From Eledone cirrhosa (lineage: Eukaryota): 64,000 bases of DNA. The notes under the pieces were generated by a model. The model searched no databases, was not told the DNA's origin, and worked only from the letters and a program-made list of their open reading frames with translations. The stretch's first letter is position 1; each line of letters begins with the position of its first letter. The stretch covers positions 3,286,001 to 3,350,000 of the forward strand of contig OZ024764.1 in NCBI GenBank assembly GCA_964016885.1, read 5' to 3'. The position numbers and the translations under genes are program-made. Positions 43,289-44,251 of the stretch are shown here, piece after piece.

Positions 43289-43349
43289 TATTATATATAT
43301 TTCAGAGGTACTGTGTTGTTTTTTCAGTACGCCCTCATCAGACAAAATA
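43289..43349 (-). ncRNA. Hammerhead motif, ATATATAT family, stem I truncated
   Basis: TTTTGT CTGATGA [GGGCGTACTG aaaaaacaaca CAGTACCTCT] GAAA TATATA TA ATA. Confidence 0.6.
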
Positions 43350-43483
43350 TATGATTTGATATTTGACATACCGCGACGGTCTTGATTATACAATTCCAGT
43401 ATTGGAACATATATATAGAAAAAAAGATGAAATCGAAAATGCAACTGGAGTCTTATTTAAAAAAAAATATATTTATATGGTTC

Positions 43484-43519
43484 CTTTACCGGTTTCGCAG
43501 TTCTTCTGCTTTTCAAAAG
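43484..43519 (-). ncRNA. Minimal hammerhead, U3-A8 core variant (left arm of fold-back)
   Basis: CTT TTGAAAA GCAG aagaa CTGC GAAA CCGG TA AAG; palindromic ACCGGT, GUA site. Confidence 0.65.
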
Positions 43520-43786
43520 TAGAGTTGATATGAAGGGTCTGTGGTTTTTCTCACATGTGAGAAAAACCACAGACCCTCCATCTAAACTCTACTTTTGAAA
43601 AGCAGAAGAACTGCGAAACCAGTGAGAAAAACCACAGACCCTCCATCTCAACTCTACTTTTGAAAAGCAGAAGAACTGCGAAACCAGTGAGAAAAACCAC
43701 AGACCCTTCATCTCAACTCTACTTTTGAAAAGCAGAAGAACTGCGAAACCAGTGAGAAAAACCACAGACCCTCCATCTCAACTCTA

Positions 43787-43822
43787 CTTTTGAAAAGCAG
43801 AAGAACTGCGAAACCGGTAAAG
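43787..43822 (+). ncRNA. Minimal hammerhead, U3-A8 core variant (last unit of the 65-bp array)
   Basis: Same sequence as 43484-43519 on the opposite strand. Confidence 0.65.
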
Positions 43823-44251
43823 GAACCAAATAAATATATATATTTTTTTAAAAATAAGACTCTAGTTGCATTTTCGATTTCACCTTTTTTTCTTTATACT
43901 TTCACTCGTGTAGGACACCTCGGTTATTTTTCATTTTGTAAAAAAAACCTCACTTTCTAATATATATATATATATACAATGATATTAAATAAATGGAAAC
44001 TATATTTATAAAACCATACATCTTTTAGAGAGGAATAAATCATAAAGAATTCCATTATTTATCAATCAGTTATAACTTAAAAGGCTCAACATTAAAGGAG
44101 CTATTTATAAGTAGAAGGGATATTTAATTTGTTGGAAATACAACAAATATCATTGAATATTTACTCCAGAAATCTGTAGAGTGCTCTGAATCAGTTATAA
44201 ACATTTATATTTATTTATTGTATTTCCAACAAATTAAATATCCCTTCTACT

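What the first reader, a model, noticed from the sequence alone, without database searches (positions are those of the whole stretch)
43418..43893. U3-A8 core-variant hammerhead, inverted and amplified as a 65-bp tandem
Seen: TTGAAAA replaces CTGANGA, a double change that keeps the 3-8 pair. It is followed by a clean GCAG/CTGC stem II, GAAA, palindromic ACCGGT and a GUA site. Complete copies are at 43484-43519 (-) and 43787-43822 (+); three internal tandem units end GAAACCAGTG and lack a cleavable triplet. Established: positions 3 and 8 form a Watson-Crick pair, and U3-A8 variants occur naturally. Inference: standard CUGANGA searches would miss this family. A second, degenerate TTGAAAA...GAAACAATTGTA motif lies at 53149-53206 (-).
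Basis: partly seen in the sequence, partly recalled or inferred. Interest (0 to 1): 0.72.

Follow-up and report, generated by a model that had tools for sequence, protein, structure and literature searches.

The report
Penelope retrotransposon end with variant hammerhead
This is a fold-back scrap of a Penelope-type jumping gene whose end carries an already known variant of the hammerhead self-cutting RNA motif, and its short repeats stop at the predicted cut site, a likely fossil sign that this RNA does cut itself in the living animal.

Summary
The motif is real: UUGAAAA core, 4-bp stem II, GAAA, palindromic ACCGGU, GUA, 3-bp stem I. It is the hammerhead in the terminal repeat (pLTR) of a Penelope-like retrotransposon (RT plus GIY-YIG) with at least 8,451 exact copies here. 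U3-A8 hammerheads in Penelope pLTRs were published in 2014 (Schistosoma), so the variant is known. The locus is a typical head-to-head insertion: one arm ends at the short, the other at the long 3' end (59 of 69 pairs). New here: (1) at least four related families carry U3-A8 with covarying stems; (2) the 65-bp unit runs from the family's 5'-end hotspot to the predicted cut site, and 5 of 14 independent tandem junctions in this region stop there, against 0 of 14 in a sister family whose GAAA is GCAA (one-sided p=0.02). That suggests copied 5' cleavage fragments, hence in-vivo cleavage; numbers are small and cleavage is untested. The second motif is the standard form of another family, not a decayed copy. 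Earlier scan notes describe the two-armed layout for other hammerhead repeats of this genome; none covers this sequence.

The parts
43418..43555 (-). Left arm: inverted pLTR copy from the 5'-end hotspot to the short 3' end, followed by (TA)n
   Evidence: 92-93% identical to the right arm over positions 1-147
43484..43519 (-). Complete U3-A8 hammerhead motif in the left arm; predicted cut between 43487 and 43486
   Evidence: cut site predicted from hammerhead numbering
43550..43561 (.). Palindromic centre where the 5' ends of the two arms meet
   Evidence: same centre in many other loci
43557..43751 (+). Three extra 65-bp units, each from the 5'-end hotspot to one base short of the predicted cut site, with one G-to-A change in the palindrome shared by all three
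   Evidence: same unit boundaries at other loci
43752..43961 (+). Right arm: pLTR copy with the 63-68 nt tail (long 3' end), followed by (TA)n
   Evidence: 115 of 219 sampled 3' ends at position 210, 82 at 147
43787..43822 (+). Complete U3-A8 hammerhead motif: U3 43790, A8 43795, stem II 43797-43800/43806-43809, GAAA 43810-43813, palindrome 43813-43818, predicted cut between 43819 and 43820, stem I 43787-43789/43820-43822
53149..53206 (-). Second motif: standard 3' region of a separate abundant repeat family with two alternative 3' ends; hammerhead-like but imperfect in both possible registers; not part of the first element

Best explanation
The locus is a head-to-head insertion of two terminal-repeat (pLTR) copies of a Penelope-like retrotransposon whose pLTR carries a U3-A8 hammerhead motif, and the 65-bp unit is likely a DNA copy of the 5' fragment that the ribozyme would release by cutting itself. 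Steps: (1, shown) the motif is the 3' end of an element encoding RT plus GIY-YIG endonuclease. (2, inferred, about 0.85) transcription starts inside the pLTR about 70 nt upstream of the cut site, which is why 40% of copies begin there. (3, inferred from this family's ends and the published anole element, about 0.85) the protein cuts both strands of (TA)n and starts reverse transcription at two internal sites, giving one short-ended and one long-ended arm joined at their 5' ends; the template is mostly uncut RNA. (4, inferred, about 0.6) a minority of RNAs pair through ACCGGU, probably with protein help, and cut at GUA; on reaching the 5' end of its template the RT sometimes jumps to the 3' end of a cut 5' fragment, which the dimer would hold nearby, and copies it. 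(5, inferred, about 0.7) that first extra unit was then multiplied by copying of the copy, since all three junctions share one G-to-A change.
For: RT (PF00078) and GIY-YIG (PF01541) above Pfam cut-offs in a 791-aa open frame 1.2 kb upstream of the motif. 8,451 exact copies, 99 of 100 shown U3-A8. Three further families with U3-A8 and different, still paired stems II, variable position 7 and GUA/GUC/GUU triplets: 9,066 matches and 3,421 against 15 for the reversed pattern; RT-EN frames 42-66% identical to this family lie beside them; stems tabulated. 5' hotspot: 40 of the first 100 of 6,721 rows start within 6 nt, 4 in the next 30 nt (counted by eye); loose ends at the same place in an outside data set. 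59 of 69 head-to-head pairs have one short and one long end, 1 short-short, 1 long-long, 8 unclassified. Junctions: of 14 independent tandem loci breaking between U3 and 19 nt past the cut site, 5 break at GU or GUA; binomial p=1.7e-4 against a flat null. Sister family with the same ACCGGU palindrome but GCAA for GAAA (97 of 100 rows): 0 of 14, Fisher one-sided p=0.02. In the 6 loci with a junction at GU or GUA (these 5 and the one found only) the opposite arm lacks the duplication, so it did not come from a source copy. Published: two internal RT starts, both strands cut, protein-assisted hammerhead (PMC11167929).
Against: No RNA-level or biochemical evidence of cleavage. Junction counts are small, needed exact anchors, and the range compared was set after seeing the data; the window's own junction counts as 'at the site' only if one G-to-A change is allowed (without it 4 of 14, p about 0.05 by hand). 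About 40 further tandem loci break at positions 16-35, and others at 41-63 and 70-72, so jump-back duplication does not need cleavage; one sister-family junction lies one base short of the window counted. Junctions at the site have 1-2 nt of microhomology. Copies starting at the cut site are only weakly enriched (about 10 of about 52 readable 5' ends, about 6 expected; 100 of 1,174 rows seen), and there is no clear excess of 3' ends at the site (100 of 133 rows, mostly microhomology deletions). The hammerhead fold is 6 kcal/mol above the predicted minimum as a monomer and 13 above as a dimer. For the anole element no RNA-seq reads began or ended at the cut site. That A13C disables the sister ribozyme rests on a cited 10-100-fold loss for A13 changes (PMC4075628).
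Confidence: 0.62

Rival explanations
1. Same Penelope pLTR origin and same two-armed insertion, but the hammerhead does not cut in the cell; the 65-bp unit arose by RT template switching guided by short microhomology or by the edge of the folded or dimerised RNA, or by DNA slippage, and its end near GUA is incidental.
For: Most tandem junctions of this family lie elsewhere; the window junction has GT microhomology; no strong 5'-end peak at the cut site; weak predicted fold; the GCAA sister family thrives with 9,066 copies, so cutting may be dispensable; hammerhead mutants did not affect insertion in vitro (PMC11167929).
Against: The sister family has the same palindrome and a longer stem II yet 0 of 14 junctions at the site; three independent loci join exactly at GUA; a 4-nt microhomology site at position 47-50 is used only once.
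Confidence: 0.29
2. The 65-69 nt unit is a small circular RNA (a minimal retrozyme) that was copied by rolling-circle reverse transcription into the tandem.
For: Three independent loci share the identical junction at GUA, one with 7 extra units; metazoan retrozymes are tandem, pLTR-derived hammerhead repeats (bioRxiv 2026.07.22.740005).
Against: Inner units lack the 3' strand of stem I, and in the window also the cleavable triplet, so a multimer could not be cut back to monomers; arrays are rare (17 junction matches at 7 loci) and always end in a full pLTR arm; multi-unit arrays also form from 50-, 52- and 71-bp units unrelated to the cut site; one array alternates two unit variants, as DNA-level doubling would.
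Confidence: 0.07
3. A fold-back DNA transposon (MITE) with long terminal inverted repeats and a chance hammerhead look-alike.
For: The locus is a near-perfect 140-bp inverted repeat.
Against: Most copies are single-armed or continue into an RT-GIY-YIG frame; the two outer ends differ systematically; stems covary across four families.
Confidence: 0.01

Closest known systems
U3-A8 minimal hammerheads of Schistosoma mansoni Cercyon Penelope-like elements (Cervera and de la Pena 2014, PMC4209133; read parts 1-2 of 4, searched 2 of 3 supplementary files)
   Same: U3-A8 core in a Penelope pLTR, short helix I, palindromic helix III, dimer-type design, opposite-strand pairs 100-700 bp apart
   Different: About 1,300 heterogeneous hits there against more than 20,000 near-identical copies in four families here; here helix II is 4-6 bp with no bulged base after position 9 and helix III keeps a 2-bp stem; no octopus entry found in the files searched
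Anolis Poseidon element PAc (Frangieh et al. 2024, PMC11167929; read parts 1-2 of 4)
   Same: Two internal RT start sites giving an optional tail, both strands cut in AT-rich DNA, hammerhead in the pLTR, uncut RNA the main template
   Different: C3-G8 core lying in the ORF start; tail there short, here 63-68 nt; no in-vivo trace of cleavage found there, whereas tandem junctions here cluster at the site
Neptune-clade EN+ Penelope-like elements (Craig et al. 2021, PMC8557442; passages read)
   Same: RT, CX2-5CxxC linker, C-terminal GIY-YIG, 5' truncation, inverted 5' copy, tail at one end, microsatellite targets
   Different: Clade placement here rests on the linker motif and (TA)n targets only; no tree was built
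Natural U3-A8 hammerheads (Perreault et al. 2011, PMC3088659; passages and part 2 of 7 of section 3 read)
   Same: C3-G8 to U3-A8 covariation, stated to be active in vitro
   Different: A13C, fixed in the sister family here, is not among the variants named in the part read
Metazoan non-LTR retrozymes (bioRxiv 10.64898/2026.07.22.740005; passages and part 3 of 5 read, supplements closed)
   Same: Tandem repeats derived from Penelope pLTRs
   Different: Retrozyme monomers each hold a complete hammerhead; the units here are cut off at the site and the family has its own RT-EN

Membership tests
Type I minimal hammerhead ribozyme | Core boxes with a Watson-Crick 3-8 pair, GAAA and NUH triplet | tested here: met
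   U3-A8, GAAA, GUA in 99 of 100 rows shown of 8,451
Type I minimal hammerhead ribozyme | Helix II with G10.1-C11.1; palindromic helix III | tested here: met
   GCAG/CUGC and ACCGGU; G10.1-C11.1 and the palindrome kept in all four families, though the search patterns required them
Type I minimal hammerhead ribozyme | Helix I | tested here: met
   3 bp in the window's subfamily, 4 bp in the CACC subfamily, 3 bp (UUU/AAA) in family B, 2 bp plus a mismatch in C and D; short, at the lower limit of published Penelope motifs
Type I minimal hammerhead ribozyme | Compensatory changes in the stems | tested here: met
   Between families: stem II G-C to U-A and C-G to A-U, stem I C-G to U-A and U-A to A-U, position 7 A/U/C; only four lineages
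Type I minimal hammerhead ribozyme | Self-cleavage at the NUH site | not testable with these tools
   Only indirect junction evidence, 5 of 14 against 0 of 14
Type I minimal hammerhead ribozyme | Bulged base between positions 9 and 10.1 (usual in metazoan Penelope motifs, not required for hammerheads) | tested here: not met
   G10.1 follows A9 directly in all four families
EN+ Penelope-like element | RT followed by C-terminal GIY-YIG endonuclease | tested here: met
   L033:2448-4820, 791 aa, PF00078 E=2.5e-7, PF01541 E=5.9e-6, both above cut-off
EN+ Penelope-like element | pLTR at both sides of the ORF, 5' truncation, inverted 5' copy | tested here: met
   L033 has pLTR end and tail just before the coding region and the full pLTR after it; inverted pairs
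EN+ Penelope-like element | [quoted passage not shown] | tested here: met
   Two 3' ends 63-68 nt apart; 59 of 69 pairs short plus long
EN+ Penelope-like element | Retained intron near the promoter | not tested
   No RNA data
Neptune clade | CX2-5CxxC linker before the endonuclease | tested here: met
   CX4CxxC in family A and family B
Neptune clade | Placement in the RT phylogeny | not tested
   No tree built; Nematis shares the linker
Non-LTR retrozyme | Tandem monomers each with a complete hammerhead | tested here: not met
   Inner units lack the 3' strand of stem I and the triplet
Non-LTR retrozyme | Circular monomer RNA | not testable with these tools
   No RNA run listed

The most novel reading that the evidence does not exclude
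The genome preserves DNA copies of hammerhead 5' cleavage products, captured by template jumping, which would be the first in-vivo trace of self-cleavage by the ribozyme of an endonuclease-bearing Penelope element; and the sister family, as abundant but with a fixed GAAA-to-GCAA core change and no such copies, is a natural ribozyme knock-out showing that cutting is dispensable for spread.
Probability: 0.5. Interest if true: 0.65.

Novelty: new member of a known kind. Interest (0 to 1): 0.45.

Why it matters
Whether the hammerheads of endonuclease-bearing Penelope elements cut in vivo, and what for, is stated as open (PMC8557442; PMC11167929 found no reads ending at the site). This genome offers a matched natural pair, two related families of about 8,500 and 9,100 exact copies with the same U3-A8 core and palindrome, one with GAAA and one with GCAA, plus a DNA-level read-out (junction position) that needs no RNA. 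It also shows that more than 20,000 hammerhead motifs here are invisible to CUGANGA descriptors. The U3-A8 change itself and the inverted layout are ordinary for these elements.

Tried and rejected
Rfam scan: the locus hits only microRNA hairpin models below their gathering scores, explained by the fold-back; no hammerhead model among the 150 of 276 rows shown. RNA data: no RNA holder listed, so no evidence either way. Laying outside contigs on one 65-bp unit: no contig bridged the junction with 31 letters on both sides; inconclusive for whether the window array is in another individual. 5' ends at the cut site: weak. Target-primed 3' ends at the cut site: none clear; that pattern also excluded the tandem junctions themselves. 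MITE reading rejected (RT-EN linkage). Retrozyme reading rejected as family membership (units incomplete). A source copy carrying the duplication rejected because the opposite arm lacks it. A 3' splice site instead of a transcription start at the 5' hotspot was considered (CAG precedes it, no pyrimidine tract) and not excluded. Second motif: TTGAAAA register lacks stem I and G10.1-C11.1; the alternative CCGAAGA register (U4C) has stem I only in one subfamily and a mismatch at 10.1-11.1; no RT-EN frame tied to it in 23 loci (the one hit, L124, lies downstream of the motif). Literature searches: hammerhead + octopus + Penelope gave one work; A13C/GCAA core variants gave none; 'template jump' occurred in none of the 12 papers listed of 26; some searches gave background only. 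Earlier scan notes: none by sequence or by words.

Full report
Setting. The window is bases 3,286,001-3,350,000 of contig C25 of a 3.0-Gb, AT-rich animal genome, packed with micro- and minisatellites. Earlier scan notes call it octopus-type; I did not test that. Element positions below count the G of GTGAG at 43752 as 1, so U3 is 39, A8 44, the palindrome 62-67 and the predicted cut follows 68.

Observation. Both complete motifs and the three truncated units are as described. The whole is a fold-back: a left arm on the minus strand, a palindromic centre at 43550-43561, three 65-bp units, and a right arm that continues to about 43961; both outer ends abut (TA)n. A transcript through the whole locus is predicted to fold into one long hairpin (-238 kcal/mol) that buries the motifs, so this copy is unlikely to be a working ribozyme cassette.

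What it belongs to. The arm is the 3' end of a large repeat family (661 candidates, 40 scored, best hits 96-100% identical; 6,721 and 8,451 exact matches to two patterns). Longer copies extend through about 1.2 kb of untranslated sequence into a frame encoding reverse transcriptase and a GIY-YIG endonuclease with a CX4CxxC linker; in L033 the end of the same repeat also precedes the coding region. This is an endonuclease-bearing Penelope-like element, likely Neptune clade, and the motif is its pLTR hammerhead. Cervera and de la Pena (PMC4209133) already reported a U3-A8 core in Schistosoma Penelope pLTRs, about 1,300 hits, and noted opposite-strand pairs; Perreault et al. (PMC3088659) reported natural U3-A8 covariation and cite in-vitro activity.

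Is it a real hammerhead? U3-A8 is the family standard (99 of 100 rows shown). Stem I has 3 bp in the window's subfamily and 4 bp in a second one. Three more families share the core: B (9,066 matches; GCAU(U)/(A)AUGC stem II, UUU/AAA stem I, but GCAA for GAAA in 97 of 100 rows), C (GAUGG/CCAUC, GUC) and D (UUGAUAA or UUGACAA, GAUG/CAUC) (3,421 matches against 15 for the reversed pattern, which include some family A mutants). RT-EN frames 42-66% identical to family A lie beside B, C and D motifs. Paired stems with changed letters and a free position 7 are what a conserved hammerhead fold predicts; the patterns themselves fixed G10.1-C11.1 and the palindrome, and only four lineages are compared. 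Predicted stability is poor (monomer -3.0 against -9.3; dimer -15.5 against -28.3 kcal/mol, though the best dimer fold does contain the intermolecular helix III), in line with the weak, dimer-dependent or protein-assisted activity published for such motifs.

The inversion. Sampled 3' ends fall at two sites, 82 at 147 and 115 at 210 of 219 (the short end proper is 142, the rest matches the TA target). Of 69 head-to-head pairs, 59 have one short and one long end, 8 are unclassified (5 of them short ends over-extended by the aligner), 1 is short-short and 1 long-long; the loci were gathered by several searches and are not a random sample. Arms of a pair mostly share subfamily marks (16 of 18, 15 of 19, 17 of 20 at three sites); the window's arms differ at two of the three. 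This fits the anole element, which cuts both strands and starts reverse transcription at two internal sites (PMC11167929), and the known inverted pLTR with a tail at one end. An earlier scan note (e1-8665316) prompted this count. 5' ends pile up within 6 nt of position 1 (40 of the first 100 rows, 4 in the next 30 nt, by eye). I infer a transcription start there, as Penelope has an internal promoter (PMC2377424 abstract); a splice acceptor is not excluded.

The tandem. The unit spans exactly the 5' hotspot to the cut site. The same architecture recurs elsewhere: 17 junction matches at 7 loci, including one locus with 7 extra 69-bp units joined exactly at GUA. As a control I listed all exact-anchor tandems with periods 21-81 (90 matches) and 82-142 (46 matches). 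About 40 loci break at positions 16-35, so jump-back duplication at the 5' end is common and needs no cleavage. The 14 independent loci breaking at 39-87 lie at 41, 50, 52, 55, 63, 63, 67, 67 (window), 68, 68, 68, 70, 72, 72; dropped were duplicate loci, one flank duplication near 89, two inverted composites, and a sixth locus at 67 found only by the targeted search. Five of 14 at 67-68 gives p=1.7e-4 against a flat null over 49 positions. In family B the same search gave 47 matches; of the 14 loci breaking at or after the core none ends at GU or GUA, one ends one base earlier (10 of the 14 read with flanks); Fisher one-sided p=0.02. B keeps the palindrome, so structure alone does not explain the peak; A13 changes are cited as reducing cleavage 10-100-fold (PMC4075628, one passage). 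The simplest reading is that RT, at the 5' end of an uncut template, jumps onto the 3' end of a cut 5' fragment. Template jumping by retroelement RTs is recalled knowledge, not shown for this family. Against: small numbers, 1-2 nt microhomologies, a range chosen afterwards, only weak enrichment of 5' ends at the site and no clear 3'-end peak. Later multiplication was probably by copying the first junction, since the window's three junctions share one G-to-A change and arrays form from other unit lengths too.

Second motif. It is the standard form of another abundant family (1,928 candidates, 99% identity; two 3' ends and inverted pairs, so probably Penelope-type). It fits neither the U3-A8 register nor a CCGAAGA register cleanly, and no RT-EN frame was tied to it.

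Verdict. A genuine U3-A8 hammerhead motif in a Penelope pLTR, a new member of a published kind, in an ordinary Penelope insertion form. The added value is the junction signal and the GCAA sister family, which together make in-vivo cleavage and its dispensability testable. Identity as a pLTR hammerhead: about 0.95; cleavage-fragment origin of the unit: about 0.6.

Noticed in passing
L136-L155, L171-L175 (family B, 9,066 exact matches): A sister Penelope family has the U3-A8 core with GAAA fixed as GCAA (A13C) in 97 of 100 rows shown, yet is as abundant as the intact family: a candidate natural ribozyme knock-out.
   Followed up: partly
L156-L170 (families C and D): Two more U3-A8 families with 2-bp stem I; L160 holds a direct pLTR-ORF-pLTR copy of family C (motifs at 1843 and 6627, RT-EN 3310-5553).
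   Followed up: partly
L050 and L051, about 20-130 nt past the junction: One arm carries about ten A-to-G changes on the sense strand against one G-to-A, resembling ADAR-type editing fixed by retrotransposition; the locus is present twice 5 kb apart.
   Followed up: no
window 43292-43345 (-), 25658, 25963, 39386, 45218 (-), 45615, 47362, 63103 (-), 63565, 63793 (-): Several canonical CUGAUGA hammerhead motifs of other families with AT-rich palindromic helix III, one directly left of this locus.
   Followed up: no
window 53110-53250 (-): Abundant family with a hammerhead-like end that fits no standard register (possible U4C core or 3-nt insertion after A9); two 3' ends and inverted pairs.
   Followed up: partly
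L012 and L100: Both arms of a head-to-head pair share an unusually long A-tract, which suggests that both were copied from the same source RNA or source gene.
   Followed up: partly
L106 (G000:C27:4048000-4049700): A 130-bp array in which each unit holds direct and inverted pLTR pieces.
   Followed up: no
window 1-38000 and 56000-62300: Dense unrelated minisatellite arrays of 38-125 bp period, up to 117 copies.
   Followed up: no
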